Part shown: piece after piece, positions 18,701 through 64,000 of the stretch
Numbering within the stretch: position 1 is the stretch's first letter
Layout of the letters: each line of letters starts with the position of its first letter
Assembly (NCBI GenBank): GCA_000004985.1
Contig: GG738907.1
Source of the DNA: Naegleria gruberi
Taxonomy: Eukaryota
Strand: one strand, 5' to 3'
Length of the DNA stretch: 64,000 nt
Notes under the pieces: model-generated
The model's database searches: none
What the model saw: only the letters and a program-made list of their open reading frames with translations
What the model was told of the DNA's origin: nothing
Position numbers and translations under genes: made by a program

Positions 18701-20896
18701 AATCTTACGATAGGTTTTGTAAAAATTATTGGCCAGATTGAACATTTGTAAATTCATTTCCTCAAAGATGGCATCCAAAAAAACAGCCTTATAGTGTTCA
18801 ATAGTTGTGAATTTGTTTGGAACCTCAATAAATCGTTTTGGATGAGTATTGTTCTGTTCATAAAGATCATTCATTTCCATATCTGGAAAGATTATTTCAT
18901 GTTTGGTCCTCTTGAGTTTTTGTACCAATGATAGAATTGGAATATCGGTTGTATTGGAGTGAGATACTGATGATTCTTTTGGAGATTCTTTCTGACCCAT
19001 ACTCAATTGAGTTTGTTTAAATTTCTTATTAGGTGAAACTCTTGTTGGTGGAGCAAACTTTTGAGCGGGAAGAGAGTTTGGTGGAGTAGCATGTTGACAA
19101 GAGGAAGAGGATGATGCAGAAGAAGGAGAAGGAGGAATAAATCTTTGAGGAGGTGTGAAGGTAGTTGAACCACTAGACTTGTTACTGGACACTGATGATG
19201 GAGCTTGAGGAGTTGTGAAATTAGAGGAGCCAGTATCATCATCATCGTCGTCATCGTCCATTAAAAGTTGTCGCTTATGTGGTTGACTTGGTTTTGGTGT
19301 CGATTTCACTGGGGGTTTCACTGTTTGGGTTGGTGGATTAAATGTGGACTTTTTAACTTTTGGTGGACTATCCAATTTCAAATCCTCATCTGAATCTACA
19401 TCAAGATTTTCCAAACTGAGATCAAGTTGTGGGGTTGGTAGTTTTTGTTTTTGTACAATTCTCGAAGCTGACTGAAAGTTTGAGCTGGTATTTACATTAT
19501 TTACACTCGTAAAAGGAGTTGTCTTTTTAGGGATATTGGTTTGTGATTGAATGTTTGGTCTAGAATTTGATTTGGTTTCTGGAATGGAAATCAGACCATC
19601 TTGGAAGTCATCGTCATCCATAAGAAGATCAATTTTTGGTTTGTTGGCTTGGTTGTGAGAAGCTGGCTTACTCATTGATTGTCCTCCTACAGCTCTGTTT
19701 GATGAAGCACTCACGGGAGGGTGCTGTTGTGCCTTAGGTACTTGAATCTCGTCCTCTTCCTCTAATATGTAATCACTTTCATTGTACGGCACCTCCTTTT
19801 CCTCTTCTTCAAATGATGGAGGTCTGTACAGGGCTCTAGTAGGCTTATTTTGATTATTTTCAAATTTACTCTTTAGGAATGAAGCTGTTGAGGAGTGATT
19901 GGAAGTTTCCTTTTCAAACTCGAGTTCAGTAAAATCAAATGTTTCGTCATCCTCTTCGTCGTAGATCTGTGGAGTGGATGATGCCCCTCTTGCATAACTA
20001 GGTTGTTGTTGTTGAGGTGGATTATATCTATTATTTAAATTAGTATTTTGATTGGCAAGGTTTGAAACTTTTTGTTGGTTGACGACCTGCTTCGGAGTAG
20101 CTTGACTAGCACTCTTAAATGATGAAGTATTATTTGCTTGACCGTAACGACTAGTTGGTGTTGTTGTGGCAGAATCATTCTTGAAGAATTTACTTGTTAC
20201 AGCAGGTTTTGTTGATGGAATATCAACATCTCCAAAATCTATTTCACCATCCTCCAAGGAAAACTCATCATCCAAGTCTTGTTGTTGTTGAACAGCTCGT
20301 GCTGGAGGAAGCCTTGAAGTGTTAGTGGAAACAGCTGAAGGTTGTTGTTGTTGGAAAATTGGTGATGGAGTCAATCTGGAAGGCTTTGGATTGCCTTCTT
20401 GTTGATTTCCCTGTTGTTGCTGGTCGCTACCATAATTCTTCTTCCATGAATCATAATTCTCCTTTAGAGGAGGCTTGAATTTCTTGACTGATGTAGTAGT
20501 AGTAGTTGTTCTGGTTATTGTTGGAGTGGTCCGAGAAGGCTGCTGAGAAGATTGGGAAGGCCTTGATTGTTGTGAGGTTGATGTTATTGATGATATATTA
20601 CTATTATTATTATTGCTACTCGATGATGAAGCCTCTGATGATGATGAAATTTCGTCTTCAATTTGAATTTTCAGACTCTTTGTTGTAAATTCCTCTCCAT
20701 TCTCCACATTTGTTATGCCATCACAGTGAGACATGAAAGTTTGCTCCACCTTGTTATTCTTCTCATCGAGAATGATCAATGATTTAGTATCCACATTGTA
20801 CTTTAAAAATCCGTCCTTGTATGATGGAGCCTTCTTTCTCAATTGATTGGTGTAGAGAATTCGGAAGGTTTTAATATTATTAGTATTAGAAGACAT
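15743..20896 (-). CDS. ZGRF1-like protein: DUF2439 N-terminal domain, GRF-type zinc finger and C-terminal Upf1-like SF1B helicase; CDS complement(join(15743..17709,17755..20896)) approx, ~1700 aa
   Basis: N-terminus FRILYTNQLRKKAPSYKDGFLKY (DUF2439/Mte1-like); GRF zinc finger CKCSLKAKLKIVKKDGPNKGKPFYGCGKSTMNDTCNFFSW; helicase motifs VHGVFGAGKTT (I, reconstituted across a 45-bp GTATGT..AG intron), ILILDESSQ (II), VAVGDPLQLPPT (III), QYRCHP (IV), TVDAFQGGEKNIVF (V), LNVALSRARNHLVIVG (VI); long Ser/Gln/Asn-rich linker. Confidence 0.8.
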
Positions 20897-25300: not shown

Positions 25301-25790
25301 CATTTCTGGCCAATCCATTATCTCCAGAAAAGGAATCAACTCCAGTTCCGACAATGGTTATAATAGTACCATTGGTTAATATCTTTCTAATTCTATTGTT
25401 GCCATTATCACTGAACAACACCTCTCCCATAGAATTAACAACTACTGATACAGGATTTTTCAATTGAGCTCTAATTGCTTCAATTCCATCTCCGTTATAT
25501 CCTGAAAATCCAGTCCCTGCAATTGTTGTAATGGTGCCATTTGGAAATACTTGACGAATTCTGTGATTATTGCTATCTGCAATGAAGAGTGAACCATCTG
25601 GACCCAATGCTGATGATGCAGGATTTGCCAAAGAAGCCTTAATTGCCAAGCCACCATCACAAACACCTCCACCTGCAATTGTTGTGATTCTTCTCAATGA
25701 TGTAGTATTCTGTGCTTGAATTGTTGCAAGAGCGCTTGAAAGTAATAGGAAGACGCTGAGCCAGTAGAATGGATTTTGAGTATTGTACAT
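22316..25790 (-). CDS. secreted/membrane NHL-repeat protein with EGF-like Cys-rich repeats, Asn/Thr-rich stalk and C-terminal TM; CDS complement(join(22316..23886,23931..24263,24306..25118,25166..25790)), 1113 aa
   Basis: signal peptide MYNTQNPFYWLSVFLLLSSALATIQA; >10 NHL-type repeats (TIAG.G..GY.GDG.A..A.L..P.GV..D..G..YIAD..N.RIRKV); EGF-like C-x-C spacing (CNGLGVCFAPDVCDCGDLYGGQFCE repeated ~6x); NNT/NNS glyco-stalk; TM MYALFALISIPIVGGMGLVACIAFGL; four track ORFs join in frame through three 42-47-bp GTAAGT..AG introns (total 3342 nt). Confidence 0.75.
22690..23050 (-). repeat. coding low-complexity Asn/Thr/Ser-rich tract (N-glycosylation-type stalk) inside the NHL/EGF gene
   Basis: translated as TNNTITNNTTVNNSNNTTMNTNETV...; mirrored spurious ORF on opposite strand (22710..23081). 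Confidence 0.5.
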
Positions 25791-26187
25791 GGTTTTGATG
25801 TCAACTGGGTTTTTTTCTTTTTGTTTTCCTGTTGCATATATGATTAATAAATGTTCTAGAGATGCAATGAAGTGTAAGAGCTCAAATTCTAGCTGCATCC
25901 AACCAAATTAAGCCCTTAATCATTTGATCTCTATTGGAATGATATATTTGGATTTCCATGGAGATCCTTGGGTTGTTGAGGAAGAGTTCAACACACAACT
26001 CGTCGAACAACATAAGAATCCAAAATTCCTTAGATATCCTACACTACACTCGATCTTATTAGAATTAATAAATAAATCTGTTGAGTTTCCACATGAGTTT
26101 CTCTAATTGTCAACAAATGTCATTGAATTACACAATCATTGCTAGACACATTCATATGATTTATTCAATTCCAAAACAACTTTGAAA

Positions 26188-32712: not shown

Positions 32713-35700
32713 TTATGTAAAATAATATTTATTTAATGGTAAAAAGCGATGTTTAAGCCTCTTCTTCCTTGAGGTTTGCGTAATTAATATTGTTGTAATT
32801 TTCCTTCTTTTCATCACCACTGCCCGAAGAGCCTTCTTCTTTCTTCTGTAAATAACAAAGGCTACCACTCCTACAACAAGAATAACAATTACCACTATTA
32901 ATAAGATTAATCCCAATCCAATGAGGTAGTAATAGTTGTGATTTTCTCCAATAATAACACTGTTAGAGTCTTTTGGAAGGCCTTGCTGACTTGATTCATG
33001 AGTTGGAGGAGGATTTGGTGCAATCATTTGGGATATGATGGCAACGGAAGATGTCCATGATTTTGAGGAGCAGGATACTGAGAAGATGGTTGCTTCTCCT
33101 TGTTCTATTTGATTAAGGATGGTTGTAGTTACATTATCAGTGTTCCAGCTGTTAGAATCATAGAATGCACATGAAAGACTTGTTGCTGCCTCTTTCTGAA
33201 CTGAAATGTTGTGCATGTATAAGTGGATAGGCTCTTTGAGATTTGTTATTTCAATTCTTTCTGTTGTTCCATTTTGCAATAGAATGAAATTAACTATTGG
33301 ACTAACTACTTTGGAATTCTCTTGTGATTTTGATGATTCAGGAATTACAGAGGAAGCCATTGTTAGAATCGTTTGTCCTAAAGTATTATTCAAAAATACA
33401 TATTCTGAAATAGTGGAAGGTAGGACCATGATGATATTTTCATACTTTTCGAAGGTGATTGTGAGATGATTGTTAATATTTTGCACTTCCACAATGTTTG
33501 TTTCTGTTTCATTTGATTTCGATTCAATATTTGAACAATAGAAAGAATCTTTCTCAGATTCTGGACACAACACATTTTGATCACATTCAGCTCCAAAATA
33601 TCCATACTTGCATTGACACTTGTCTAATGAAGAGCAGAATCCATTACCAGAACAAACACGTTCATCAGAGAATGCAATACCAAAACAGTTGAATAACTCA
33701 CAAGAATCACCAAAGTAGCCACCAGAACATTCACACTTATTTGGAGATACGCAATTCCCTCTGGACGAGCAAACTGTCTTGTTGGACATTAGAATATCAA
33801 AACATTTGAAAAGTTCACATTCATCTCCTTCATAACCCTCTAAACATTCACATTCATTATATCCAATACAATTACCTTTTCCAGAACAAACATTATTAGC
33901 AGAAGGTATCTTTCCATAGCAAATTGTATTATCGAGGGTCAATTGAAGCATTGGATTTGGCTCTCCAGCTTTACCAGAAATAGCAATAGAAAGTTCCACA
34001 TAGCTCGATGAAAATTCTGTTATTGGAATAATTAGTGATCTGTCATGGTCTCCATTCGAAGAGTAGCTGCTGTAGTCTGGGGAGTAAATTTGTTTAGCAA
34101 CACCGACATTCACATAACCTGAAACAGCCTTAATATTCAAAACGAGATAGTCAGAATATGGCCGTCCGTAATAATTGAGGATGTTGGGCATTCCATCAGT
34201 AGATGCCTTCATCAATATAGTATCTCGTAAACGGATGAAGGCGTCATCTAAGAAGGCAGATAATTTGAATGTGGAAGCAACTAGCCCGTAAACTCCAATG
34301 TAATAGCATCCAACTTGTTGATTGCTTAACATGAGAACTTGACCGTATTGAGTTTCAGGATCCACTTTCCAATTATAATGAGTTTCATTCGCAGGTTGGC
34401 AGTCATTAGAAACATACATGATTGTGGAGCCGGTAATATTGATCAACGCAAAGGAAAGATGTGAAGCAATGTTTTTTTTGAGATCGAATCTGAATTGATG
34501 AATCTCATTGTTAGCGACACTATCTTCCCCAGAAATTCTATTCAAAGGTAATACTCTGTAAATAATTTTCACTTTCAACTTATACGAAACAGGAGTTGAA
34601 GAACTCGTCTTGACAGCAATGTAAAGGTAACTTCCTGAAAAGAGGATTTCCTGGTTGTAAATACCATTAATTTCTTGTGGTGCACCATCTTGCCCTATTG
34701 GTTTAGGATTTTCGGTACTGTAATAAAGGTTAATGACACCAACACTTTCAATTGAAATGAGCAATTTCATTGAACCATCCAATGGATATTGGTAAAATTG
34801 ATAGAAATCCGTATTTACAATTTTAGAGGAAACAATCTGGTCATTTGATAAGAGAATTGACTTGTTTGATTGTAAAGCCATTATTGAGTAGTATGAAAGT
34901 GCTGAAAGTTCTGAATAAGTTCCTTCCACTGTAACACGAAACTCATTTGAAGTTATGAGTTTAGAGATTCCTGGAATTAGCAATGCATTTGGTGACCGTG
35001 TACTCCAATTATAATCTCTTGGAGAAGGAAAGGTATTCTTGGTATTGACATACAACTCAACGCTTCCAACTGATGTTGAAATGAAGAACATTATATCAGT
35101 ATTGTTAAGTTCCTCTTGCTTGGCTTTGAAAGTGAAGTATCCATATTTTCCATAAGGTACAACAAACAATCCAACTCTTCTTCCATTGATCAATTCTGTT
35201 GGAGGATTTTCTGTTGAATATGTCAACGTATAAGAAGAGTCAACTTCACCAAAAACAGAAAATTTGAGATCACTTCTCTCGTTAATAATCAGTTGTCCAG
35301 GTTGACCTACTGTTCCATTAGCTGCCCTAGTGTGAACATATTGATTTGGTCTTTCACTTTCAAAGGAAAGGAACAATTTCACACTTCCAAAAAATACAGT
35401 CAATGTAAGGCTACTTTTTAGCATATCTTTCTTGTTATGTTGGTAGTAATTCAATTGATTTGCAGCAACTGTTCCATTCACAGCAACATCCTCTTGTAAA
35501 AGCACGTATTCTGGCATTGATTTTACGGTCAAAGTTACCAATCCAATCTTGATTCCAATGTAATAAGTGCCAACCTTTGAATCACTCATAGGAATTTGCT
35601 TTACTTTTTCTCTATTTGCCAACATGTAATAATCATAACTGTTCTCAGTTGGTTTGGTTCCATACTTGATATAAAAGTCTACCATCTTGGTTGTTCTCAC

Positions 35701-36621
35701 AATAACTTCAAACCTTAAATTTTGTAATATCAAGTTATTGTAAACAAAATAGTGCAAATCTGAAGTTGGTGAATCCTCCCTGAATGCAATACTAAGACTC
35801 TCAGATATCATTGTTGAAGTATTTGCTTGACATGAAACTATTGTAAACTTGTTGTCAACAAAATATCCATACACTCCAATCCAGTACTCTCTTGGAGAAT
35901 TTTCCTCCACTGGAATGGTAACAGAATCAGGTCCATAACTACGTGATGCATAATCATAATCTGTACTGGTTGGAAATTGAGATATTCCTGAAACATATAG
36001 ATCAGAATCTCCCTCTTGAGTACCAATAGAAATATAGAGCTTTGTTGGTAGTTGACCAGTGACTTTAACTTTAAAATAGGAATAACCATTTCTCTCTACC
36101 TGACTGTATTGTGGTTGACCATCAACTAGAGTAACATGTGCTGTTTAGGTTCGTTTCCAATAGTAAAAATTTCCCATGTTTTACAACTTACCTGGACTAG
36201 TACTTCCCCACAAGTTGAAAGTAAACCTAGCAGGAGTATTACCATACACACCAATTGTGAAAATATTTCCATTACTTGGCCATGTTCCATTCGCAGTGAC
36301 AAGTAAACTTGGATACGAAAGCAAACACTTTTCACACTGTAAAGTTGGTTGACCATACGTGCTAACATACATGTAGACTTCACCACTCAACGGAGTCAAT
36401 GCAAATGTAGCAACAGCACTAGAAAAAAGACTTGGATCTACATAGTAATAATGCCATCCTCCTTCTTCTACCATACCATTTATAGGAATACCAATTTGTT
36501 GAATGATTTCTGCTTGATTTTGAGTGGACAGTAAAATATTTAATAATAAAATGATGGTTATCAACAAGAGGGAAACAGGAAACAGCTGTGTACGGACCAC
36601 CACTGGTGGTGTGGAAACCAT
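32713..36621 (-). CDS. large type I membrane glycoprotein with four tandem beta-rich repeat domains, EGF-like repeats, Thr/Ser-rich stalk, TM and short basic tail; CDS complement(join(32713..36140,36192..36621)), ~1285 aa
   Basis: signal peptide MVSTPPVVVRTQLFPVSLLLITIILLLNILL; recurring domain-end motif [YF][YW]IG[VI]YG (TIGVYGN, EYWIGVYGY, TYYIGIKIG, CYYIGVYGL); three EGF-like modules (CSGKGNCIGYNECECLEGYEGDECE...); TM YYYLIGLGLILLIVVIVILVVGVVAFVIY followed by RRKKK; 51-bp GTAAGT..ACAG intron. Confidence 0.7.
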
Positions 36622-39883: not shown

Positions 39884-41833
39884 TTATTGTTGTAAATATC
39901 TGCAGCCAACAAGATATAGTAAATAAATCAAAATCAGCTTCAATGTCAAGGCAATGACAGCTGCATTGGTTTCTGTTGAACTAGTTCTGAATCTCTTTGA
40001 TGCAAAATAATCTGGATAGATCTGTTCTGTTTTAGTGAGCTTCAACAAGTCATCAATTGACCATTCTCCATTTCTATTTGGGGAATGATTCAACAAACGC
40101 AAGATGATTTCCTTTCTGCCTTCATAATCTGCAAGTTGATAAATTTCAAATAATTGTCCAGCTAATATTCTAGAAAGCAAAATGTTAAATGTTTTGTGAG
40201 GTCTTTCAATATCCTTCTTGGATAATAAACTTGCATAATTTACATTTTTAGAAATTTCCAAAGTTTCCAAATTTGGTAGTTGTTTTAAATAATTTACAAA
40301 TTCGTCATTGAAAAATTGAACTGGATCTACTTCTGTCTTGTAATGAACGAGGAATAGTTTGAGGAGGAGAATATTCTTGATAAATTCTTCTCTAGTTTCC
40401 AATGGTCGAGTGAATTTCTTATTAAAGAACTTGGCCACACGAACAGTATTGAATCCAATGTCGAAAATTGACATTTTAGAATCAGTAGCAATGGTTTCGA
40501 ACAGGAAAGGAATGACATGTTTGAAATTGGAAGATAACGTGTCCAGTTCTGTAAAATTATTGAGATTCAGCAAGATTAATTCATGTAAACTGAAAGCTAG
40601 AGATCTAATTAGAGCTCTATACTCCAAAGAGTTCAATTTCGTGTCATTTCCATACAGTACAATCACCATGGCAGGTGTTCTTCCTTCCTTAATAGTAAAC
40701 GTCTTACAGGGAAAATCTTCTGTTGAATTTTCCTTCTTTCTTCCTTTAACAATGTAAATAGTTCCGAAACTCTTCGATTTCTTATCACCTTCATGGCATT
40801 GAATTCTAACAAATGAATTTTCATTATCCTTAAAGAGTGAAAAATAGAAATTTCCCTTATTCATGGATATGAAATCTTTAACTGCCTTATCAGTTGAAAA
40901 TTTTCCATATTTTTCAATATTCAAATGAGGGAAAACCAACAGGGTTCTAATAAAACTCAATCTGTTTTGTAATTTCCAAATTGGAATACTTGATTTGAAT
41001 GGAGAAAATCTTAAAACACTTTCAATGGAACGTTGAGCATGTGGCTTGACAAGTTCCATTCCAGTTTCGAATATTTTCAAGAATTCGCTTGGCTCTTTCA
41101 ACATTAGCTCTTCTCTATGAATCTTGCCTTTGATAAATTCATCTCTCAATAAATTCTCCATGTCTTGATTGAGAGAATGTGAATTTTCATAAGATTCCAA
41201 TGATTTTCCATCATTTTTCCAACTTGGTTTGACATTTGGCAACTGAAATGATGGAACACTTTCATCTCCTCCAAAATATTGCTCTAACAACTCGTCCATG
41301 TATGGAACTTTCTGATTATAAACTTCATTCGAATATTTTTCAACCATTTCCAAATTTTTCTTCAATTCCAATTCAAGAATTTTCAATTTTTCCTTTTGAT
41401 TTTCAATAAATTTTAATTCTTCTTCTGTTAAAATCTCATTCATCACATAAATCCATCTCTTGATTGGTAAATAATGTGAAATTATCAAATCTTCCATTGT
41501 TGGTCGCATTTCTGCTTGTTTGTTTCGAATAGCAAGTCGTGGAATGGTTTTTAATGCATTTTCCAATGAATTTAATTTAGTTTGAATTAAATTATGGAAG
41601 GAATCTTGCCAGAAGGGAGAATTTACATTCTTCTTGTGATGATCACTTCTTGTAATTAATTTATAAATTGTTGGAAAGGAATCGTCCAGTTTCGGAGTGG
41701 TCTTAACTTGTCTATAGAAACGATTGACAACTTTTCTGGCATAATTTCTGTAAGAATGTGTTTCGTATGAGATTAAACTTGTGCCAATTCGATGAAATTT
41801 TCCCACAGAACCCGAAACTAAAGGTTTCATCAT
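39884..41833 (-). CDS. hypothetical protein (649 aa) with basic N-terminus and C-terminal hydrophobic tail
   Basis: long ATG ORF; N-terminal Arg/Lys-rich amphipathic segment (possible organellar presequence); C-terminal AAVIALTLKLILIYLLYLVG (tail-anchor-like); no named domain. Confidence 0.4.
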   Translation of the reverse strand: MMKPLVSGSVGKFHRIGTSLISYETHSYRNYARKVVNRFYRQVKTTPKLDDSFPTIYKLITRSDHHKKNVNSPFWQDSFHNLIQTKLNSLENALKTIPRLAIRNKQAEMRPTMEDLIISHYLPIKRWIYVMNEILTEEELKFIENQKEKLKILELELKKNLEMVEKYSNEVYNQKVPYMDELLEQYFGGDESVPSFQLPNVKPSWKNDGKSLESYENSHSLNQDMENLLRDEFIKGKIHREELMLKEPSEFLKIFETGMELVKPHAQRSIESVLRFSPFKSSIPIWKLQNRLSFIRTLLVFPHLNIEKYGKFSTDKAVKDFISMNKGNFYFSLFKDNENSFVRIQCHEGDKKSKSFGTIYIVKGRKKENSTEDFPCKTFTIKEGRTPAMVIVLYGNDTKLNSLEYRALIRSLAFSLHELILLNLNNFTELDTLSSNFKHVIPFLFETIATDSKMSIFDIGFNTVRVAKFFNKKFTRPLETREEFIKNILLLKLFLVHYKTEVDPVQFFNDEFVNYLKQLPNLETLEISKNVNYASLLSKKDIERPHKTFNILLSRILAGQLFEIYQLADYEGRKEIILRLLNHSPNRNGEWSIDDLLKLTKTEQIYPDYFASKRFRTSSTETNAAVIALTLKLILIYLLYLVGCRYLQQ

Positions 41834-41877: not shown

Positions 41878-42234
41878 TTACAAATTTTCTTTTTGATAAA
41901 TTTCAACTTGCTTGATCATATTGAAAAGCAAATCTTCAACTTGCATGGCAGATTTTTCAATTCCATTTACAAATTGACTATATAAGGTAAAATTAGTTTC
42001 CTTTCCACACATGCCAAGTTTCTGAACGAGTGGCATTCTGTCGAATTCTTCTATTTGTTTCCTTCTTTCTGAATATTTCTCAATTCTTTCATTTTCTGAA
42101 TAGATAAAAAAGTATAAATACCATTCTAGGTAAAGATCCAATTTTCTACTTGACAATTCGTCAACAGATTGGTGACCAGTATGGGAAATGAACATTCTCT
42201 CGAGGGGAATCCAATAATTTTCATAAATTTGCAA
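41878..42234 (-). other. downstream out-of-frame continuation of the DUF262 gene (frameshifted C-terminal segment); possible pseudogene or sequence error
   Basis: ORF begins at TTG overlapping the stop of 42221..43048 in a different frame; no GT dinucleotide exists in the ~60 nt around the junction, so a canonical intron cannot explain the shift. Confidence 0.35.
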
Positions 42235-43048
42235 TTTGCTTAGTTTCGTCCAGTTTGGAAAGTAAGTGATTCTTGATTAGGTCTGAATAGGATAAGTCAA
42301 TTCCAGGAGTTTTGATGTAAAAGAGAATTTGATTGGATTTTCCAACATCGTACCGTTCTCCAAAACATTCTTGTGCATTAATTTCAGATTCTTCATATTC
42401 AATAATCACAAATTTACCATTTATGGTAAGAATTGGAATAAGGCTTGATTTTACAATGGCCAAACTATTAACTTGTTGTTTTACAAGTTGTGATTTGAAG
42501 ATTTTGTAAAATATTTGTCTGGTATTGTGCATATTAGAGTTTTGAAGAAGATTAGTTTGATCACCTTTGAATCCAATAAGAATTTCGATATTCGAAACTC
42601 TGTCGTCATGACTTGGGATTAATCGAGAAACATTCTTTGCAATTTCACTTGCCTTTGCATATTTATCTTCACTTGACAAGTATTCCTCTTGCAATTTCTT
42701 CAAATCAACTGACTTGACAAAGATATACGAATGAATTTCGTCTAAAATCTTTTCACTATCTACCAATTCCAAAGCAGCATCTCTCAAAGCACAAATCCCA
42801 ATCAACAAGGTAGTCAATCTCTGTTGACCATCAATACAAACTCTACTTGCCAACTTCTTTTGAAAAAACAACTTTCCAATATGATGACCGAATGAAGTTC
42901 CATTGAAAACCAAATCATTGTACAATTGCTTGACAATCTTACTATTCCAGCAATATTTTCTTTGATAGATTGGAATCTGAATCTGTGAACTCTTACCAAA
43001 TGAAGGATCTTTAAATAGAGAGCTAAGTGTATGTGGTTCGATTTTCAT
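42221..43048 (-). CDS. DUF262 (ParB/Srx-like nuclease superfamily, GmrSD N-terminal domain family) protein, N-terminal part
   Basis: hallmark motifs IPIYQRKYCW and IDGQQRLTTL in the expected order and spacing; ends at a stop that is followed immediately by a +1-frame ORF (41878..42234). Confidence 0.6.
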   Translation of the reverse strand: MKIEPHTLSSLFKDPSFGKSSQIQIPIYQRKYCWNSKIVKQLYNDLVFNGTSFGHHIGKLFFQKKLASRVCIDGQQRLTTLLIGICALRDAALELVDSEKILDEIHSYIFVKSVDLKKLQEEYLSSEDKYAKASEIAKNVSRLIPSHDDRVSNIEILIGFKGDQTNLLQNSNMHNTRQIFYKIFKSQLVKQQVNSLAIVKSSLIPILTINGKFVIIEYEESEINAQECFGERYDVGKSNQILFYIKTPGIDLSYSDLIKNHLLSKLDETKQIANL

Positions 43049-43220: not shown

Positions 43221-45671
43221 TTACATGATTGTGCATTTCCTTTTTCGTGAGGGATTTTGAAGTTTGCTTTTTCTTCTCTTCAATTCTTGTGATAGGGTGG
43301 CATCGTCCTTGGCCAATGCCTGATCAATGATTGGTAATGTTTTCACATACGTCTTGACTCGGGCTCTATACATCATGGCTGAAATTTTCTCAAAGGAGCT
43401 TTGAATATTCTCCAGAGTGTCTGTATTAACAATGACCACATCCTTAATAAAGTACGAGTAGGTTTTCTGAACCTCCCATAAATCATTCAAGGAAATCTCG
43501 TGTAAGGTGGTATTTTTCGTGATTGTTCCCAGAATGATGGCTGCTGGAGGATCCATGGTTGTTCTTTGCTCATCCTTCTTTCTAAACTCGATACACTTTT
43601 CAATGTACTTGATCATGGCATCGAGGGAACTTCTGCTCGACATGTAGGCAACGAATATGACTCCATCAGTGCCTCTGAACTTGTATTCTGCACTATTTGG
43701 AGCGAGGGAATAGTCCATAAAACTGCACGATTCTACCTTTACTTTGAATTCTTCCTTGTTAAATTTTATACTCTTACATTCAAAGTCAGTTTTGCCTGGT
43801 AAGGTGAATTTCATGTAAATAATTCATGAATAAATATTTGAAAACTTACTCTCGAAAAATAGAGATCTAATTGTTTGCACAACAAGAAAGTTGACACCAG
43901 CAACCAACAAGTAAAAGTAATTGGATGGATCGTAAACTACATTCTTCTTTTTAGGAATGACAACCTTTTGTTGCAGAGATTGAGTATTCACATACGAGTA
44001 GAGTCTCTTGTAGGAAATGTTCAATGACTTTTTACATTCGAGATCCCTCATGTACTCTTCCAGCTTGTCAATGGTTGGAAAATTAGGATAGACATATTGC
44101 CACAGTATCATGTATTTCCAAAAACCTTCCACAATACTATTCTTGAATTGATCTTCATTTTCAGGATCAAATTCAAGAGCCGAGTGAAAACTTTTAGAAA
44201 TGAGCATTAAATTAAAATAATCACGAGTAAGCTCTGCTGGGAATGGTGTATATTTCGGATAGTGGCCTATTCTTCTCATGGTTGAGCTGGAATTTCTTCT
44301 CGATATGGTAGAATTACTCGAATCTATAGGTGTTATTGAACTAGGAGAAAAGGAACCAATCATGTTAGTACCTGTTGGTGAAAAGGAAAAGTCAGCAAAC
44401 AAGCTTGACGTATGGGTTGTTGTACATAGTATAAAACTGGCAATGTGTAAAATAATTTCTTGTGGACAGTCAGAAAGATTCGAATAATTCCTAATTTTTT
44501 GTCGTTTAGGTTTTTGACTAGAAAGCTGTGACAGTGTACTACTCAACCTCCTGATGAATTTTAAATTTGATGAAGGATTATTAGTCGGTGATGAAAGTAC
44601 TTCATCTTGCTCCGTGAGACAAATTATTGTTGTTGGGTCAATCAGGCATGTGGCATTTGCCGTCATTTTTTCACCATTATTTTCAAGTGTTTGGTTATTT
44701 TTATCTCCTTCCTGATCAATCTGGGAACGATTTTCCCTTCCCAAAACCTTGTCATTAATCAAACAGTTTTCTGCTGGGTTGCCTTCTTCTGTATGTCTTT
44801 CGTTTGAGGAAGAATGAAAGCTCAGTTCTTCTCTACTACTGCAACTAGTATTAGTTGTTGGTGATTCGACAAATGGTACGACATTTGATTCATTACTGCA
44901 ACAACTAATATTTGATAAGCTGTGATTCGTATTGTGGACTCCTGAAACAGATGAGGAAAATGACTTGAATGAGGATAAAGTATTAGTGGTTGAATGTTTC
45001 TTCTTGTTAGGTGTTATTAGAGAGCCATCTACTGTTAGAAATTGAGTGTTAGAAGGACTCTTATTTAGTGGTGGAGAATGGTAATGTTTCTTTGCCATCT
45101 TGGATTCTTTAGATTTACGTAAGAGTCTTGTGAGAATGTTATTTCCCTTAATGGTCAAACTTTGACCATTAGTTAGTAGTGAAGGTTGAGTAGTATTTGA
45201 TGTTATTGAGATGGTTGGAATGGCAGTGTTAGTGAGGGCAATAGAAGGAGGACATGCTTGATTATTCTTATTATTCGAAACGAGGGTCTCTGAGCGAGAG
45301 AATGAATCTCTAGATTTCTGAGAAACTTTAGGTAATGGATTCGAGCTGGATCTTCCTCTTGTCTTACTTTCATCTGGAGCAAAACTTGGACTAGCCATTG
45401 AATCTGTCTCATGAATAGAACATCTCTTCAAATTTGCTGATTGACTAGCCAATAAATCATTCCTCTCCTGAATACCAACATCATGCTTTGAAACTTGATT
45501 TAAATTTCTACTAAATATTGAAAGAGAGCTAACGACACCATTAATACTATTTGATGAAATATCCAATCTTGAAAAGGATAAATTTGAGCCTTGATTTCTC
45601 TTACGACGTTGTTTCGTATAAGATGGAGCCAATTGAGCAGTTGAAAGTAGTACTACTTGATGAGAGGGCAT
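43221..45671 (-). CDS. hypothetical protein (~798 aa), Ser/Thr/Asn-rich N-terminal half and conserved C-terminal region; CDS complement(join(43221..43795,43850..45671))
   Basis: two track ORFs join in frame through a 54-bp GTAAGT..CCAG intron (...SLFFE|SKTDFECKSIKF...); total 2397 nt in frame. Confidence 0.5.
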
Positions 45672-53697: not shown

Positions 53698-54903
53698 TTA
53701 CAGGTTGGATCTTCTCTTGTTGTGCTCTCTCAAGCAAAACTCAATGGTTTCCCTTCCAATATTAATTTCTCCGCAATGAGCTTGTTCAAATCCTTCACAA
53801 CCTGGCGATGAATTAATTTCACAAATTTTGTAAACATTTTCATGATCGAGTAAAATGTCAACTCCTGAAATATCCAAATGACATTCCTTTGTGGTCAACC
53901 GTGCCAATCTTTCTAGCTCTTCATTCATTGGAAATTTTTCACACAAAGCTCCTTGATGAAAATTTGCTTTGAAATTTCCATTCGTTGATTTTCTCATCAT
54001 TGAGCCAACTACCATATCTCCCATTACAATAATTCGTAAATCCTTTCCACTCGAATTGGAAATAAACTCTTGCAATATCCAATTATTTGAGGTTGAAATT
54101 ATTTCATTTAAATCTTGAAGTTGATTTCTGTCCTTAATTAGAATAATTCCCTTTCCTTGACTTCCATTCGTCTTTTTCAAAACCTTTGGATAGCCACCTA
54201 GTTTCTGCTCAATCCATTCGAATCTAGTGAGTGGAAATGTTGCAGCAATTGTTTTTGGAATGGAAATTCTCTTTCGTGCTAGAGTTTGCATTGTAACAAG
54301 TTTATCCTTTGAAATTTCCATTCCTTTTGAAGAATTCAAAACCAAACACTGTTCGAAACTTTCCAAAAATCGTAAAAGAGCCATTTCACAATACGTAATT
54401 TTAGCTCCACATCTATTAATGATGACATTTGGCAATTCCACTATTTTCCCATCATATTCCACTTGATTTTGCAACAAGTCAGTTTCTGAATCAGCACACA
54501 CTGAAAACAATCCAGTTACCTTACTCGAAACCAACACACCAGCTCTCCATCCTTCCTCAATAATCCTTCGTCGAGTATAATTCAATTCCTGATTGGTTGA
54601 AATAATCCAAACTCTCAATTTTGCTTTTTTATATCCAAAACCTTTAATCATTTGCAAGCCGTGCTCTTCCGAGTTGTACAATGTATCATCCTGTGCATTC
54701 AAATAAATAATCATCTTGGAATGGGATGAAGAGGATGAAGAGGAAATATATTTTGGTTTTAATTGAAATGATAAAGCATATTCAGGAATTGTAATTTCTC
54801 TTGAGGATGACAATTCCGATGCAGATGATGATGATGATGAGGTGTAGATCTCTTTCGTCATTGGTTCTGCCTTAATTGTTACTAATTTTCCATTGGTTAG
54901 CAA
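53698..54903 (-). CDS. ATP-grasp ligase of the RimK family (alpha-L-glutamate ligase/beta-citrylglutamate synthase-like)
   Basis: ATP-grasp core: GGYPKVLKKTNGSQGKGIILIKD, WILQEFISNSSGKDLRIIVMG, NFHQGA, ICEINSSPG. Confidence 0.7.
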   Translation of the reverse strand: MLTNGKLVTIKAEPMTKEIYTSSSSSSASELSSSREITIPEYALSFQLKPKYISSSSSSSHSKMIIYLNAQDDTLYNSEEHGLQMIKGFGYKKAKLRVWIISTNQELNYTRRRIIEEGWRAGVLVSSKVTGLFSVCADSETDLLQNQVEYDGKIVELPNVIINRCGAKITYCEMALLRFLESFEQCLVLNSSKGMEISKDKLVTMQTLARKRISIPKTIAATFPLTRFEWIEQKLGGYPKVLKKTNGSQGKGIILIKDRNQLQDLNEIISTSNNWILQEFISNSSGKDLRIIVMGDMVVGSMMRKSTNGNFKANFHQGALCEKFPMNEELERLARLTTKECHLDISGVDILLDHENVYKICEINSSPGCEGFEQAHCGEINIGRETIEFCLREHNKRRSNL

Positions 54904-58634: not shown

Positions 58635-61600
58635 ATGCCACCAAAATATGTCATTCAACAGCAAAAATTGAAACAACAGGCAGTGTCTAATCAATCACCA
58701 CAAGCAAATTCTAATGGTTTATTTGTTCAACTGGGTGTGTTACCACAAACCAATCCACAACCACAACCAACTTTAGTTGATTTACCTCCTCTTGTTGTTC
58801 CCACCAACAGTATCATTACTCCGTCCACACCAAATGATCAATCATCTACACCACTGTCAGCTGTTTCAACATCATCCATAAGTTTGCAAGCATCATCAAC
58901 ACCAACTAGTTCATCACCTCCTGCAGCCAAACCAGCAACAAAGAACGAAACTAAAAAACCAAAAGAGAAAGACAAGAAAGAAAAGGACAAGAAGGAAAAA
59001 AAAGAAACGAAGGATAAGAAAGAAAAGAAAGAAAAGAAGGAAAAGAAAGAAAAAAAGGAGAAGGAAGAGAAGGACAAGAAGAGAAAAAAGGTTCCAGAAA
59101 AGTCTTCTGAAAAAAGTAAAAAGAAGAAATCCGATGCTTCTACTCCAACAATCAACACAACATCAATTACCAGTAGTAGTGCAACTCCAACAGTACCATC
59201 TCCACAAAAGGTTGTAAAAGATGTTGAAATGACAGATGTCTTAACAAAGGAAGAAGTGATCAAAGCAGTGTTTGAAAATATTCCAAAACAAGTTATTGTT
59301 AAAATATCATGCTTGGATTCTAATGAGTTCCAAATTGATGAAGATATTGTATTAAGTGAAGAGGGAATTCCAATTGTTAACGGTATCAAATTGTTTCAAT
59401 CAATTGATTGGAACAATTCATTAGAAGATCATGAATCTTTCTTTAATTTCAACTGCTCACTTGTTCTTTCAACTATTGCCAGCGAAAGTTCAATAACAGT
59501 TCAAGAGTTTATTTATTCTATTGATGAGGCACTCAAATTGAATCAACAGTATTGTAAGGATTTGATGCGTTCTATGAATATTTCACACGAAAACTATTCC
59601 TTTGTGTACGATTTGCAAACCAACTCAATGAGCTTGATTTTCAAGAGAGAAACAGAAATAGTGGAACTTGCTGAAATGCTCTACGAAATCAAGACTATTA
59701 GAGAACTGAAGGAGGCTGAAGAAATGGAAGCCGAGGAGCAAATTATTACAGAGGGACCAATAGATGAAATTCAAGTCAATTTTGAGTTTAATTTTGAAAA
59801 GGAGGAGAAAAAGTATGTATTGGAGCTTCGTGCACCAAAGGCAAAATCGTACAAAACCATTGTCTCATCCCATCTCCAAATTGCTGAAAGTGATATTTTG
59901 AATTATGGTGAAATAGCTAGCGAAACACTGGTTGAAGCTAATGGTGTATTACCAACAAAACTGAAGGACGTTCTAGCTAGCAGAGTTGATGTAAAGGTAG
60001 TGCATCGTCATGTCTATTATGAGCAGAGAGTAATTTCATATGAAATATTCGAAAGAATGAAGGATATTATTGGACAGACTGAGTTTTCATTATATAATCA
60101 TCTCTGCTTTCTAGTTTGTACGCCTGATCAGAATACCTTATGGCATCAGACAATGGAAAGATTGGAAAGATCCAACATTCTGCCACCAAATACCAAACTT
60201 TCACATGTCTCAATCAAGTATAGAAAAGATCACGTCCAGATGTTCGAAAAATTCAGAGACAGAATTGCAAATGAAAAAGAAACTCTCTTCATTATAATTG
60301 TAGACGAGTGTCACTATGCAATTACCAAAGAAGGTGCTCACGACAAGATTGTTAATGATGAGCTCGCTCTTCAACACAATAACTTTTTCATTCTATTGGT
60401 GAGCGCAACCCCTTACAATGTCCTCTCAGTTGATAGTAATATTCCAGAAGTGTACAAACTCTTGAACAAACATGAAGATTTGGAAGTTGGTACAAAAATT
60501 CAAGTCACTTCCACGAATTATAACAAGATAGGATTTGGTGTATTGATCAAATATGAGGAGCAATATTCTACTCCTGTGTATGAGCTAATTGAATCCAAGG
60601 ATCAAAATATATTTTTGGAGGATGTAGAAGAAATAACTGGTAAGATTATACCACTCATGAGTGATGAATCTGAAGAGAAAAACTTTGAAATTGGAGAAGT
60701 TGTGGAATATGAAGAAGTTCCTGACACAAATCCTCAACCAACTTCTAAGAAATCAATCTCAACAGTCAGGTACATAGTCAAATCCCTAACAAGAAACTTG
60801 GAAATGGAAGTAAACCTCTCAGATAGAGATTTACGAAAGATTAATACTTCAAAAACTAGAAGAATTACAAATCAAGCAATTGGCAATATTCCAAAGGGAA
60901 AACTTGTTGAAATACATGATATAATCAAGTGGAGTGTAACTTTCAAACCAGTGAATAATGATCCAGCAGTATCCAAAGAATACACCCTCAATGATTGGCA
61001 ATTCAAACACCTTACCAATTACGAGGAGTACAATGTTGTGAGTTGGAGTGAAGTACAAAAGCGTACAACCTTGGAAAGAACAGAGCAAGATAATCAAACG
61101 AAGAAATACTTCAGCAAACAGGATTACATTAATTCTCTCAAGCAAGAAGAACCACTTGTTTTCAAAGATTTAGAATTTGAAAGAGTTCTGAAAAAGATCA
61201 AGGTTGCATCCAATACTTTAAGACCAATCATGTTAGCTATTGACTATCACTTTTGGATTATTACTGAAGGATTGAGAAGAAAACTATATGATGAAGTTAC
61301 TGCTTACAGACATTTTAATTCCATTGATGCTGCTCTTGATATTGAACCAAAGCACAAAATATACGTAGAGATTTGTAAATTAATTTATCTAGCTTACTTG
61401 TGTGCTAAACATTTGAAGATGGATGATGTTTTGGAGAATCAAGAATTTGATGACGAGGACGATGACTATGATATCCTTGATGAAACTAAAAAGACCGTAA
61501 AGAAAAAGAAGGAAGATTTGGAAAAGAAAATTCAACATTTACTGGAATATTTGAAAAATAAGTTCAAGCCAAAGAATCCTGAAAGATTATTTTCAGTTTT

Positions 61601-64000
61601 AATCGATCAAGAATCCCACACCAAAACTCTCATTAATACCTTGATAGAATCTGGTAAAATTCCAAATGATAACAGTGTGACGTTGAGAGGGAAAATGAAA
61701 ATATTGAGAATTACAACTACAGATTTTGCCAACACTGTTTTCAAGCTATTGAGAAGTTCCATTTCCAAAGTAGCAGCAAGTGGCTACATTTCACCAGATA
61801 TTCTCATAGACACTGGTGAAAATCCACTCACTCTCGATCAATTATCTTTCATCTCAAGAATGAAACTTGCTGAAAAAGTTCTGTCCACAGAAGATTATGA
61901 AGTTTTCCAAAGAAAACCAAGTAGACTTTCTAAGGAGAAAAAATCTTTGGAATACATTAATTTACACAATTTCCCTTGCATTCTAATCCTAGTTGCCAAA
62001 GGTCGTCAGGGAGATACCTTCCCTAATTCATTTGATTGCTTGGATATGAGAGCCAAAGGTGATTCCTTGCCAAATTACTCATCTTTTACACAAGAATTTG
62101 GTCGTTTGTGTAGATATGTGGACGATTCTGACAAGAAACCTATTGCACTTGTAACAGATTCAATTTATAAGGATTTATCCAAGTGCGGTGAAGGTGGAGC
62201 TACAATAGTAGGTAACACGAGCATGAAGCTTGATACCTACATGACCAAGATGAAAGGAAAGGAAGGTCAAAAGTATTGGTCCATTGTTACATTCTGTAGA
62301 AGAACCATGACTGCAGTTGATGGAAAAAAGCTTAAAGGTGAAAAGAAAAGTCCTCCTTCCTATGATTCAATGAGATCAGGTTCTGATAAGGATATCTCCT
62401 CAAAGAAAAATCACAAGAATCGTATGTTACTATTCGCCGAACCACAAGTAAGTATATTTATAGTATTTGTGAATATTAATAACAATGAAATCAGATTGGT
62501 AAAACAGACGCCTTTATTCACTGTTTGGAAAGAGTAATTCATGACATTGAGAAAAATAGAAGTGAGCGTATGGTTGATATTAATGAAGAAGAACAACCAT
62601 ACGATGATAATTCTATTGGTGTTGATGCTGTTATTTCTAACTATTCTGAATTGGAACGTGTATTACCTTACTTTGAAAATTTACAAGGTCAACAAAGGGG
62701 TGAATACAGCTCAATTTCTGCTGGAAAGTATGCCAAGCTTGTTTTGAAAACCAGAGAGGAAATATTCACTGAATTTACACCTGATAAGATCAGGTCTGTA
62801 CACAAATTATCAAGAATTGAATCTTTCATGACAAGTTCCAATCATTATTGGAGCAAGTTTATGGAAAAATTGAGTAGCCACAACTTTGATTTGGAAACAT
62901 TCCAGACATTTGATGGAAGATACAATGATATTTTACATCCTTCATCTGGATATAGAACGCTGAAGTTTGGAGAATCAAGTTCTACATCATCCTCGAAAGA
63001 AATTATTGAGAAAGTTGACTTATCCGAAAAGATGAATATTGGTCTTGCAGATATGAATTATAAGGATAAATTAATTACCATCCAATTGCAAAAGGTATTT
63101 GGATTGAAGATGGCCATGCTAGAGTCTTGCTTTCCAGGAGAAAAGCCATTAATTTCCATTCCATCAAGCAAAATGAATTGGTTTGTAATTTCATCAGATC
63201 AACAACATGTCACCAGATTCCTACTGCCTGATGATCCTAATGGTGTTAGAAGTTGGATATTTGTCCCTTCTTGGAATAGAAGTGCCTCAGGTTTATTCTA
63301 TCTGAAAAGTATGAAGGTTCCATATAGACAAGTAATTGTTGTAAGACATTCCGAATTCAAGTGCTATAGAAATGTTTTGGGAGGAGATTTTGTGATTATG
63401 AGCTTACCAGATATTGTGAATATGAAAGATCTTTTCAAACTATTCCCAATCCCAACAACTGAACAAAGAAAGTTACAGTACAATGAAATAGTGGATGGAA
63501 AAACTCTTATTGATTATGAAATGAAGGACGATGTTGGAGGAATTGGCTACTCTAGAATGGTCATTCAAATTCTTTCCTATGCATTTGGTTTGGAATTTAT
63601 TTGGATGATGGATGATAATTGCCATCACTTTGAGAAGGTTGAAAATGGTAGAAAGGTTCCTTGCTCATTGGCAGAAGTTTTAATTCCACTCGAGAAAATT
63701 GTCTATGATGAAAACAAACCAATTTCAACTATTACTCAGTCAATTCAACCAATATTTAAAAATAGACAAAATCCATCTCTGAATATCACTCTTAATGATA
63801 GTATAAGCAGTTTTACTCCTGGAAAGGATAAAATTGCCATGATTGGAGTTAGAAAGGATGGATACAGATATTCTTCATCGATCAACTACAAACCATTTGT
63901 AAACAGTTTCACCATTTGTTCTCTCTTCCTTTTGAATACAAAAAGAACAATTGATTCTGGTTGTATATTCCCATCAAGAAGATATTTAGAAGACATTGAA
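58635..64000 (+). CDS. very large multidomain protein (>1770 aa, 3' partial): Pro/Ser/Thr-rich N-terminus, KEKK charged repeat, SF2 DExH-helicase-like core (motif II DECH, motif III SAT), C-terminal GT8-like DxD glycosyltransferase-like module; CDS join(58635..62447,62495..>64000)
   Basis: LFIIIVDECHYAI followed 31 aa later by FFILLVSATPYN (canonical II-III spacing); KGRQGDTF candidate motif VI; no recognisable Walker A upstream; after a 47-bp GTAAGT..ATCAG intron the frame stays open to the window end and contains WIFVPSW ... IQILSYAFGLEFIWMMDDNCHHF resembling the GT8 LHCWSLTQYSKCVFMDAD block. Confidence 0.6.
58960..59100 (+). repeat. coding charged low-complexity repeat (KEKDKKEKKEKKEK...) within the large gene
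   Basis: aaagaaaag/aaggaaaag purine-rich reiteration translating to (K/E/D) repeats; mirrored spurious antisense ORF 58838..59389. Confidence 0.5.

What the first reader, a model, noticed from the sequence alone, without database searches (positions are those of the whole stretch)
58635..64000. Giant gene combining a Walker-A-less DExH helicase-like core with a GT8-like DxD module, running off the window
I do not recognise the architecture: a Pro/Thr/Ser-rich N-terminus, a (KEKK)n tract, and a central region with a strong motif II (IIIVDECHY) and motif III (LVSATP) at canonical 31-aa spacing, but no GxGKT/S Walker A within ~300 aa upstream. After a 47-bp intron, the C-terminal segment carries WIFVPSW and LSYAFGLEFIWMMDDN. 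These resemble the GT-A/GT8 nucleotide-sugar binding strand and the DxD block of glycogenin-type transferases. A helicase-like protein fused to a glycosyltransferase-like module would be unusual in a eukaryote.
Basis: partly seen in the sequence, partly recalled or inferred. Interest (0 to 1): 0.75.

Follow-up and report, generated by a model that had tools for sequence, protein, structure and literature searches.

The report
GREB1-like permuted helicase–glycosyltransferase gene
This is an ordinary protist copy of the GREB1 protein family, in which a helicase-like motor with its ATP-binding loop moved to the far end is joined to a sugar-transferring enzyme related to phage DNA-glycosylating enzymes; the architecture was described in 2013 and is not new.

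Summary
One + strand gene runs from 58635 off the window end, with a 47-nt GT..AG intron at 62448-62494.

The architecture is known. Pfam matches cpSF2-GREB1 ("circularly permuted SF2 helicase found in GREB1 proteins", E 3e-159) followed by TAGT (TET-associated glycosyltransferase, above gathering).

The "missing" Walker A lies downstream of motifs V and VI. It is A1268-EPQ|IGKT-1275, split by the intron, the only Walker A consensus in the 1773 residues, and invariant in homologues.

The closest relatives are hypothetical proteins of Naegleria fowleri (50% identity, one collinear alignment across the splice site), N. lovaniensis and Willaertia magna.

Published work already lists GREB1-like proteins in "Naegleria-like Heterolobosea".

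Verdict: a new ortholog of a known family, of low interest. One open point remains: all ATPase motifs are intact here, whereas human GREB1's helicase is described as inactive, so a DNA-directed glycosylation role is still possible.

The parts
58635..62447 (+). Exon 1 of the GREB1-like gene (aa 1-1271)
   Evidence: ORF. In-frame stop upstream at 58617. Collinear with the N. fowleri ortholog from aa 204 onward.
58635..59231 (+). Low-complexity N-terminus (Pro/Ser/Thr-rich, with a K/E tract at 58956-59090)
   Evidence: Composition. No significant Pfam hit. Orthologs also start with low-complexity sequence.
59244..60008 (+). N-terminal region (aa 204-458) aligned so far only with the Naegleria, Willaertia and two unnamed close homologs; no Pfam family
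   Evidence: BLASTP alignments to N. fowleri, N. lovaniensis, Willaertia and P0003 start at aa 185-207. It has only 3 Cys, so it is not the Zn-binding domain described for human GREB1.
60009..63142 (+). Circularly permuted SF2 helicase module (Pfam cpSF2-GREB1), interrupted by the intron
   Evidence: PF20692 at E 3.2e-159 (532 bits, gathering 26.2), best stretch aa 459-1194. Exon-2 residues 2-216 match profile positions 483-715.
60105..60131 (+). Motif Ia-like strand, CFLVCTPDQ
   Evidence: Read from the sequence. Conserved in heterolobosean orthologs. The assignment to motif Ia is inferred.
60303..60314 (+). Motif II (Walker B), DECH
   Evidence: Invariant in alignments A1 and A2. Lies within the weak ResIII/DEAD match.
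60402..60410 (+). Motif III, SAT (within LVSATP)
   Evidence: Invariant in A1 and A2.
61998..62024 (+). Motif V-like, KGRQGDTFP
   Evidence: G, GDTF invariant and K, R, P nearly invariant in A4; aligned across 37 blocks.
62091..62117 (+). Motif VI-like, QEFGRLCRY
   Evidence: Q, G, R, Y invariant in A4 (E and C nearly invariant; the second R is invariant in A1).
62436..62506 (+). Relocated Walker A (motif I), AEPQ|IGKT, aa 1268-1275, split by the intron
   Evidence: It is the only [AG]x4GK[ST] match in the protein. A, Q, G, K, T are invariant in A1 and A4. The same position after motif VI is seen in at least 25 long homologs.
62448..62494 (+). 47-nt spliceosomal intron (GTAAGT...CAG), phase 0
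   Evidence: Sequence. Its removal restores the ortholog-conserved LLFAEPQIGKTD.
62495..64000 (+). Exon 2, partial (aa 1272-1773), running off the window
   Evidence: 502 open codons. Aligns in one stretch to Willaertia residues 1371-1882. About 140-170 aa are missing, judged from the orthologs.
63083..64000 (+). TAGT-type GT-A glycosyltransferase domain, C-terminal end cut by the window
63254..63274 (+). First beta-strand of the nucleotide-sugar-binding fold, WIFVPSW
   Evidence: Strand E254-258 in the AF2 model. W, F, P invariant in A3.
63344..63346 (+). Conserved Arg (R1555) of the R...DD...ED active-site pattern
   Evidence: Invariant R284 in A3. [quoted passage not shown]
63611..63619 (+). 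DxD-type metal/UDP-sugar motif, DDN (within WMMDDN)
   Evidence: W, M, D, D invariant in A3. It sits at the end of strand E368-372 in the model.
63989..64000 (+). EDIE acidic motif (putative catalytic base region), the last residues in the window
   Evidence: E, D, I, E invariant in A3. Corresponds to the EDY/F motif of phage GT-A enzymes and JGT.

Best explanation
**What it is.** The locus is one nuclear gene of a Naegleria-like heterolobosean amoeba. It encodes a GREB1-like protein.

**Domain order**
- a low-complexity N-terminus;
- a lineage-specific N-terminal region;
- a circularly permuted superfamily-2 helicase-type ATPase;
- a linker;
- a TAGT-family GT-A glycosyltransferase.

**Helicase module.** The first strand, P-loop and helix of the N-terminal RecA-like lobe (motif I) have been moved behind motif VI. 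The linear order is therefore Ia-II-III...V-VI-I. This explains why no Walker A precedes DECH.

**Shown here**
- family membership;
- the motif order;
- the splice junction;
- the GT-A fold;
- intact R...DD...ED glycosyltransferase residues;
- intact motifs I, II, III, V and VI.

**Inferred mechanism.** The helicase module binds a nucleic acid and probably hydrolyses ATP on it. This positions the glycosyltransferase, which uses a UDP-sugar and a divalent metal held by the DDN motif to glycosylate a hydroxyl acceptor.

**Acceptor.** It is not established. My preferred guess, at about 0.4, is a TET-generated 5-hydroxymethylpyrimidine in DNA, as for phage TAGT enzymes and the kinetoplastid base-J glucosyltransferase. 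Ser/Thr of a protein, as reported for human GREB1, is almost as likely.
For: - **Family membership.** Pfam cpSF2-GREB1 matches at E 3.2e-159, and TAGT matches above its gathering score.
- **Orthologs.** They carry the same two Pfam domains: N. lovaniensis 52%, Willaertia 40%, and N. fowleri 49.8% in one alignment of 1614 columns that spans the splice site.
- **Motif order.** DExH > SATP > GRxGDTFP > QExGRxCRY > AExQxGKT > WxxDD > EDIE recurs in at least 25 long homologs from an exhaustive search of 1.84 billion representatives. Key residues of each motif are invariant.
- **Literature.** PMC7968844 describes the GREB1 architecture and lists Naegleria-like Heterolobosea among its carriers. N. 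gruberi has TET dioxygenases (references cited in PMC8256090).
Against: - The C-terminal 140-170 aa, including the end of the GT domain, lie outside the window.
- An artificial de-permutation did not extend the ResIII match to motif I.
- No sequence match to any solved structure was found.
- No TET/JBP gene was found in the window.
- The only experimentally characterised family member, human GREB1, glycosylates a protein, and its helicase is called inactive (PMC7968844).
- No expression data were available for the intron.
Confidence: 0.9

Rival explanations
1. This rival keeps the same GREB1-like family but changes the acceptor. The enzyme would be a protein O-GlcNAc-type transferase, as reported for human GREB1. 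The permuted helicase would act only as a binding scaffold.
For: Human GREB1 O-GlcNAcylates ERalpha through this GT domain. Its helicase is described as catalytically inactive (PMC7968844). No TET/JBP gene lies in the window.
Against: All ATPase motifs (I, II, III, V, VI) are intact, with key residues invariant among protist homologs. That pattern is not expected for a mere scaffold. The nearest non-GREB1 relatives of the GT domain are phage DNA 5hmC glucosyltransferases. Heteroloboseans lack ERalpha (PMC7968844).
Confidence: 0.35
2. There are two separate genes. A helicase-like gene would end at the stop at 62535-62537, and an independent glycosyltransferase gene would start downstream.
For: The unspliced ORF does terminate at 62537. 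No transcript data were available.
Against: The intron has canonical GTAAGT...AG ends and is phase 0. Splicing recreates the invariant AEPQIGKT Walker A. N. fowleri, N. lovaniensis and Willaertia proteins are continuous across this point. No ATG-initiated ORF of 60 aa or more covers the GT region on its own. Exon 2 is open from its first base.
Confidence: 0.03
3. A conventional-order DExH helicase has lost its Walker A and is fused to a GT8/glycogenin-type transferase, making a new eukaryotic architecture.
For: No Walker A lies upstream of DECH. A DxD-like DDN follows a hydrophobic strand.
Confidence: 0.02

Closest known systems
Animal GREB1 / GREB1L (Pfam cpSF2-GREB1 PF20692 + TAGT PF20691)
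   Same: It has the same two-domain core in the same order, with a circularly permuted SF2 helicase module followed by a TAGT/Fringe-like GT-A glycosyltransferase. The protein is of similar size, about 1.9-2.1 kb of coding sequence.
   Different: - The window protein has no Cys-rich N-terminal Zn-binding domain (3 Cys in aa 200-458). It has a low-complexity K/E and P/S/T-rich N-terminus instead.
- The helicase of human GREB1 is described as catalytically inactive (PMC7968844), whereas here motifs I, II, III, V and VI are all intact.
- I could not retrieve an animal sequence to compare residue by residue.
Hypothetical proteins FDP41_000499 (Naegleria fowleri), C9374_001944 (N. lovaniensis) and ABK040_005548 (Willaertia magna)
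   Same: These are orthologs at 50%, 48-54% and 37-44% identity. They are collinear from the N-terminal region to the EDIE motif and have identical catalytic motifs.
   Different: This is a different species, since no exact product of this window is on record. The low-complexity N-termini are divergent. Willaertia carries a weak Cys-rich CXC-like segment that is absent here.
Phage TET-associated glycosyltransferases and T-even beta-glucosyl-HMC-alpha-glucosyltransferase; kinetoplastid base-J glucosyltransferase (JGT)
   Same: The GT domain belongs to the same Pfam family (TAGT) and has the same R...DD...ED pattern. PHROG 842 matches at E 3.3e-11, and the top BFVD structural hits are phage TAGT proteins.
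   Different: Those enzymes are stand-alone proteins of about 270-310 aa, or differently built ones, encoded next to TET/JBP or thymidylate-synthase-type genes, and they act on DNA. Here the domain is the C-terminus of a protein of more than 1900 aa with a permuted helicase. No TET/JBP neighbour was found in the window, and the acceptor is unknown.
Canonical SF2 helicases/translocases (ResIII-type, DEAD/DEAH)
   Different: Motif I lies C-terminal to motif VI, not N-terminal to Ia. About 400-500 residues are inserted between the lobes. No sequence-level hit to any solved helicase was found.

Membership tests
GREB1-like proteins (cpSF2-GREB1 + TAGT) | Match to the curated cpSF2-GREB1 profile above its gathering score | tested here: met
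   532.3 bits against a cut-off of 26.2, E 3.2e-159. The exon-2 part alone scores 86.8 bits.
GREB1-like proteins (cpSF2-GREB1 + TAGT) | Match to the TAGT glycosyltransferase profile above its gathering score, C-terminal to the helicase in the same polypeptide | tested here: met
   31.8 and 34.6 bits against a cut-off of 27.5. The two domains are joined by the spliced frame, and the product is collinear with the N. fowleri ortholog.
GREB1-like proteins (cpSF2-GREB1 + TAGT) | Circular permutation, with Walker A (motif I) located after motif VI in the sequence | tested here: met
   The only Walker A consensus is at aa 1268-1275, after motif VI at aa 1153-1161. The same order is seen in at least 25 homologs, with key residues invariant.
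GREB1-like proteins (cpSF2-GREB1 + TAGT) | The relocated P-loop strand and helix pack structurally into the N-terminal RecA-like lobe beside motif II | tested here: inconclusive
GREB1-like proteins (cpSF2-GREB1 + TAGT) | N-terminal Zn-binding domain, as described for human GREB1 | tested here: not met
   There are 3 Cys and 4 His in aa 200-458 and no Pfam hit in aa 1-458. This is probably a feature of the animal branch and not of the family as a whole. Pfam defines the family by the two domains above.
TAGT / JGT-type DNA glycosyltransferases | GT-A fold with conserved R...DD(D/N)...ED(Y/F/I) active-site residues | tested here: met
TAGT / JGT-type DNA glycosyltransferases | Genomic or functional association with a TET/JBP dioxygenase | tested here: not met
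   No TET/JBP Pfam hit among the ORFs scanned in the 64-kb window. Linkage is not expected in eukaryotes, and the rest of the genome could not be searched.
TAGT / JGT-type DNA glycosyltransferases | Transfer of sugar to 5-hydroxymethylpyrimidine in DNA | not testable with these tools
   This needs biochemistry or nucleoside mass spectrometry.
Canonical SF2 helicase (ResIII / DEAD-DEAH) | Collinear motifs I-Ia-II-III-V-VI and a profile match above gathering | tested here: not met
   The order is Ia-II-III-V-VI-I. ResIII scores 21.0 bits against 22.5 and DEAD 15-17 against 26, over motifs II-III only.

The most novel reading that the evidence does not exclude
In heteroloboseans the permuted helicase may be a working ATPase, unlike the module called inactive in human GREB1. 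It would track along DNA and let the TAGT domain glycosylate 5hmC or 5hmU made by the Naegleria TET-like dioxygenases. Naegleria-like amoebae would then be a second eukaryotic lineage, after kinetoplastids with base J, that carries glycosylated bases in nuclear DNA. A GmrSD_N/DUF262 gene 15 kb away (42221-43048) carries the N-terminal domain of the GmrSD restriction endonuclease family. As I recall, GmrSD enzymes cut glucosylated-hmC DNA. That would fit this reading, but it may be coincidence.
Probability: 0.25. Interest if true: 0.65.

Novelty: new member of a known kind. Interest (0 to 1): 0.15.

Why it matters
For the scan, the result removes a false "unknown architecture" flag. The gene is an ortholog of a curated family whose domain logic (permuted SF2 helicase plus TAGT glycosyltransferase) is published. 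Public pipelines already name at least one homologue: UniRef labels a green-alga protein a [quoted passage not shown].

It is also a practical caution. A helicase that seems to lack a Walker A should be checked for circular permutation and for motifs split by introns.

The residual biological value is modest. Protist GREB1-like proteins keep every ATPase motif. They come from organisms that have TET enzymes and lack oestrogen receptors. They are therefore the natural place to test whether the ancestral GREB1 function was nucleic-acid glycosylation and not protein O-GlcNAcylation.

Tried and rejected
- **Sequence search of solved structures.** The protein alone and the family profile A1 both gave no hit at E<=1 and E<=10. 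No solved relative exists.
- **Word-indexed homolog searches.** They returned only 8, 6 and 2 hits. No animal GREB1 sequence was retrieved, so I could not compare helicase motifs with human GREB1 directly. The exhaustive representative search with exon 2 gave 90 hits.
- **Spliced protein as a query.** I therefore modelled exon 2 from the window, and the cpSF2 module from homolog P0008.
- **Artificial de-permutation.** I placed the Walker A segment in front of the N-lobe. This did not extend the ResIII or DEAD Pfam matches to motif I, so it gave no sequence-level proof of the permutation beyond motif order.
- **AFDB Foldseek.** The library was unavailable.
- **Exact-product look-ups.** Four window ORFs found nothing, so the source species was not identified beyond "Naegleria-like".
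- **Iyer et al. 2013 (NAR).** The paper could not be read, as it is not held. What I say about it comes from PMC7968844, from PMC6163654, which cites it, and from my own recollection.
- **Bacterial-type promoter and terminator scan.** A scan upstream of the gene was uninformative for a eukaryote.
- **GT8/glycogenin idea.** Rejected.
- **Two-gene idea.** Rejected.
Full report
**1. Observation**

The region holds a long + strand ORF, 58635..62537, of 1300 aa. An in-frame stop lies just upstream at 58617. At 62448-62494 there is a 47-nt segment with canonical intron ends, CAA|gtaagt...atcag|ATT. Removing it joins the ORF in phase 0 to a frame that stays open to the last base of the window. The result is 1773 residues without a stop. 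At the window's base composition, 502 stop-free codons have a chance of about 2e-17.

- the K/E tract, aa 108-152;
- IIIVDECHY, aa 553-561 (60291-60317);
- LVSATP, aa 588-593 (60396-60413);
- WIFVPSW, aa 1525-1531 (63254-63274);
- LSYAFGLEFIWMMDDN, aa 1631-1646 (63572-63619).

However, the only [AG]x4GK[ST] match in the whole protein lies downstream. It is A1268-EPQ|IGKT-1275, and the intron splits it.

**2. What it is**

A Pfam scan of the spliced product gives two families:
- PF20692, cpSF2-GREB1, "Circularly permuted SF2 helicase found in GREB1 proteins": E 3.2e-159, 532 bits against a gathering score of 26.2;
- PF20691, TAGT, "TET-Associated Glycosyltransferase": 31.8 bits against 27.5. 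Exon 2 alone scores 34.6 bits.

The nearest proteins in public data carry the same two domains:
- Naegleria lovaniensis C9374_001944, 52% identity;
- Willaertia magna ABK040_005548, 40% identity;
- Naegleria fowleri FDP41_000499.

BLASTP of the spliced product against the N. fowleri protein gives a single alignment, aa 204-1773 against 412-1967, at 49.8% identity over 1614 columns. It runs straight through the splice junction. All three orthologs read ...LLFAEPQIGKTD[AS]F... at that point. The intron and the one-gene reading are therefore supported, and the two-gene alternative is not.

The rest of the window holds ordinary eukaryotic nuclear genes:
- an RNA polymerase I Rpa2;
- a Rad51-domain protein;
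- a ZGRF1-like helicase;
- a RasGEF;
- Kelch and RCC1 proteins;
- teneurin-like NHL/EGF proteins.

No tRNA was found. GC content is about 34%. Exact products of four window ORFs are not on record. The source is therefore a Naegleria-like heterolobosean that is absent from, or annotated differently in, the collections I could query.

**3. The "missing" Walker A**

An exhaustive HMMER search of 1.84 billion cluster representatives, using exon 2 as query, found 90 relatives at E<=1e-3. Among the long ones, at least 25 show the same linear order:

DExH > SATP > G[RK]xGDTF > Q[ED]xGRxxR > [AG]xxxxGK[ST] > WxxDD > ED[IVL][ED]

An alignment of 37 motif V-to-Walker A blocks shows a strongly conserved KGRxGDTFP ... 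QExGRxCRY ... HYD ... RxLLxAExQxGKTGA[FY]L.

The invariant residues are as follows:
- In a seven-sequence full alignment: DECH, SATP, K-G-R-x-G-D-T-F-P, Q-E-x-G-R-x-x-R-Y and A-E-x-Q-x-G-K-T.
- In a 16-sequence block alignment: G-x-x-G-D-T-F, Q-x-x-G-R-x-x-x-Y and R-x-x-L-x-A-x-x-Q-x-G-K-T.

So motif I has moved behind motif VI. This is a circular permutation, and it is the feature the Pfam family is named for.

Independent support that the core is SF2-like is modest:
- The DECH-SAT block matches ResIII (E 3.4e-4, 21.0 bits against a gathering score of 22.5) and DEAD (E 7e-3 to 2e-2) over motifs II-III only.
- I could not inspect coordinates, so packing of the relocated strand beside DECH is not shown here.
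- Placing the P-loop segment artificially in front of the N-lobe did not lengthen the ResIII match.
- No solved structure matches by sequence.

**4. The glycosyltransferase**

An AF2 model of the exon-2 product was built from a seven-sequence alignment. Its N-terminal 196 residues are of low confidence. In the GT region most 10-residue blocks from about residue 200 to 410 average 63-91, with short dips; confidence falls after residue 410.
- WIFVP is the first beta-strand.
- WMMDDN places the DD at the end of a strand, the usual position of a DxD motif in GT-A enzymes (established knowledge of the fold).

- many GT2-type synthases;
- no glycogenin in the top 60.

PHROGs gives family 842, "beta-glucosyl-HMC-alpha-glucosyltransferase", at E 3.3e-11. 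Foldseek against viral models puts phage "TET-Associated Glycosyltransferase domain-containing" proteins and a Klebsiella phage beta-glucosyl-HMC-alpha-glucosyltransferase on top (E 1e-4 to 4e-4, probability 1.0).

The active-site pattern reported for phage GT-A DNA glycosyltransferases and T. cruzi JGT is R...DDD...EDY/F (bioRxiv 10.1101/2023.12.21.572611). It is present and invariant here as R1555 ... D1644-D1645-N ... E1770-D1771-I-E. The window ends right after EDIE. Orthologs continue for 140-170 more residues.

**5. Comparison with what is known**

Shin et al. [quoted passage not shown] They show that GREB1 O-GlcNAcylates ERalpha. [quoted passage not shown]

A 2018 review gives the same domain description, crediting its reference 47 (PMC6163654). 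From memory, that reference is Iyer et al. 2013, which I could not open. UniRef already labels a green-alga homolog [quoted passage not shown].

The architecture is therefore known, and its presence in this very lineage has been noted.

Differences from the animal proteins:
- There is no Cys-rich N-terminal domain.
- The N-terminus is low-complexity.
- The full set of ATPase motifs is intact.

I could not obtain an animal sequence to verify the claimed degeneration there.

**6. How it most likely works**

- **Shown:** domain identities, motif order, intact catalytic residues in both modules, and the GT-A fold.
- **Inferred:**
  - The permuted SF2 module binds a nucleic acid. Given its invariant P-loop, DECH, SAT and arginine-finger-like motif VI, it probably hydrolyses ATP.
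  - The TAGT domain uses a UDP-sugar and a metal bound at DDN to glycosylate a hydroxyl group.
- **Acceptor:** open.
  - For DNA 5-hydroxymethylpyrimidines speak the phage and JGT affinities of the domain, the intact motor, and the presence of TET-like dioxygenases in Naegleria gruberi (Hashimoto 2014 and Pais 2015, as cited in PMC8256090).
  - For a protein acceptor speaks the only experiment in the family, on human GREB1.
  - I put DNA at about 0.4, protein at about 0.35, and other acceptors, such as RNA, at the remainder.

**7. Verdict**

- the protein is not Walker-A-less;
- the glycosyltransferase is not GT8-like;
- the fusion is not unusual in a eukaryote.

This is a new ortholog of a known, curated family, and interest is low. 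The most novel reading still open is that heterolobosean GREB1-like enzymes are active, DNA-directed base glycosyltransferases. That prediction has been in the literature for years and needs biochemistry, not more sequence analysis.

Noticed in passing
window 42221-43048 (-): This 275-aa ORF has a clear GmrSD_N/DUF262 domain (E 2.3e-21), the N-terminal domain of the GmrSD restriction endonuclease family; as I recall, GmrSD enzymes target glucosylated-hmC DNA. It lies in a eukaryotic chromosome, 15 kb from the TAGT-bearing gene. No C-terminal nuclease domain was seen in the same ORF, and neighbouring ORFs 39884-41833 and 43221-45671 have no Pfam hits. Its exact product is not on record.
   Followed up: partly
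window 15743-17674 (-) and 17729-20896 (-): Two adjacent minus-strand ORFs together look like one ZGRF1-like gene. One carries ZGRF1-like_N and a GRF zinc ribbon, and the other an SF1 AAA_11/AAA_12 helicase. They are probably separated by a short intron.
   Followed up: no
window 523-2733 (+): This 736-aa ORF has a Rad51 domain (E 1e-72) confined to its C-terminal 250 residues. About 480 residues of unassigned sequence precede it.
   Followed up: no
window 10080-13919 (+): This is an RNA polymerase I second-largest subunit, with an Rpa2-specific domain 4. The ORF as listed starts with TTG, so the true start is probably in an upstream exon.
   Followed up: no
window 22316-25898 (-) and 32713-35910 (-): A cluster of teneurin-like NHL-repeat and EGF-repeat ORFs, apparently a multi-exon gene or a small paralog group.
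   Followed up: no
window 53698-54903 (-): A RimK-type ATP-grasp ligase with a RimK_N pre-ATP-grasp domain (E 1.4e-41), a mostly prokaryotic family, in this eukaryotic window.
   Followed up: no
library proteins P0027 (4793 aa) and P0068 (2887 aa): These relatives repeat the helicase motif series twice in one polypeptide. In P0027 the full series recurs, including both WxxDD and EDIE. In P0068 DExH, motif V, motif VI and Walker A recur, but no SATP or WxxDD pattern was found. This points to tandem duplication of the helicase module, and in P0027 of the whole cpSF2-TAGT unit.
   Followed up: no
public protein P0001 (Naegleria lovaniensis C9374_001944): The annotated model reads ...QKYWIWSHIAEEQCKLWMERRLVLFAEPQIGKT... 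and lacks a stretch of about 115 residues (window aa 1337-1451). BLASTP splits into two pieces there. This suggests that introns in the public gene model were mis-called.
   Followed up: partly
tools: searches compared: The word-indexed protein search returned only 2-8 family members, while the exhaustive search found 90. Negative results from the indexed search should not be read as absence.
   Followed up: yes
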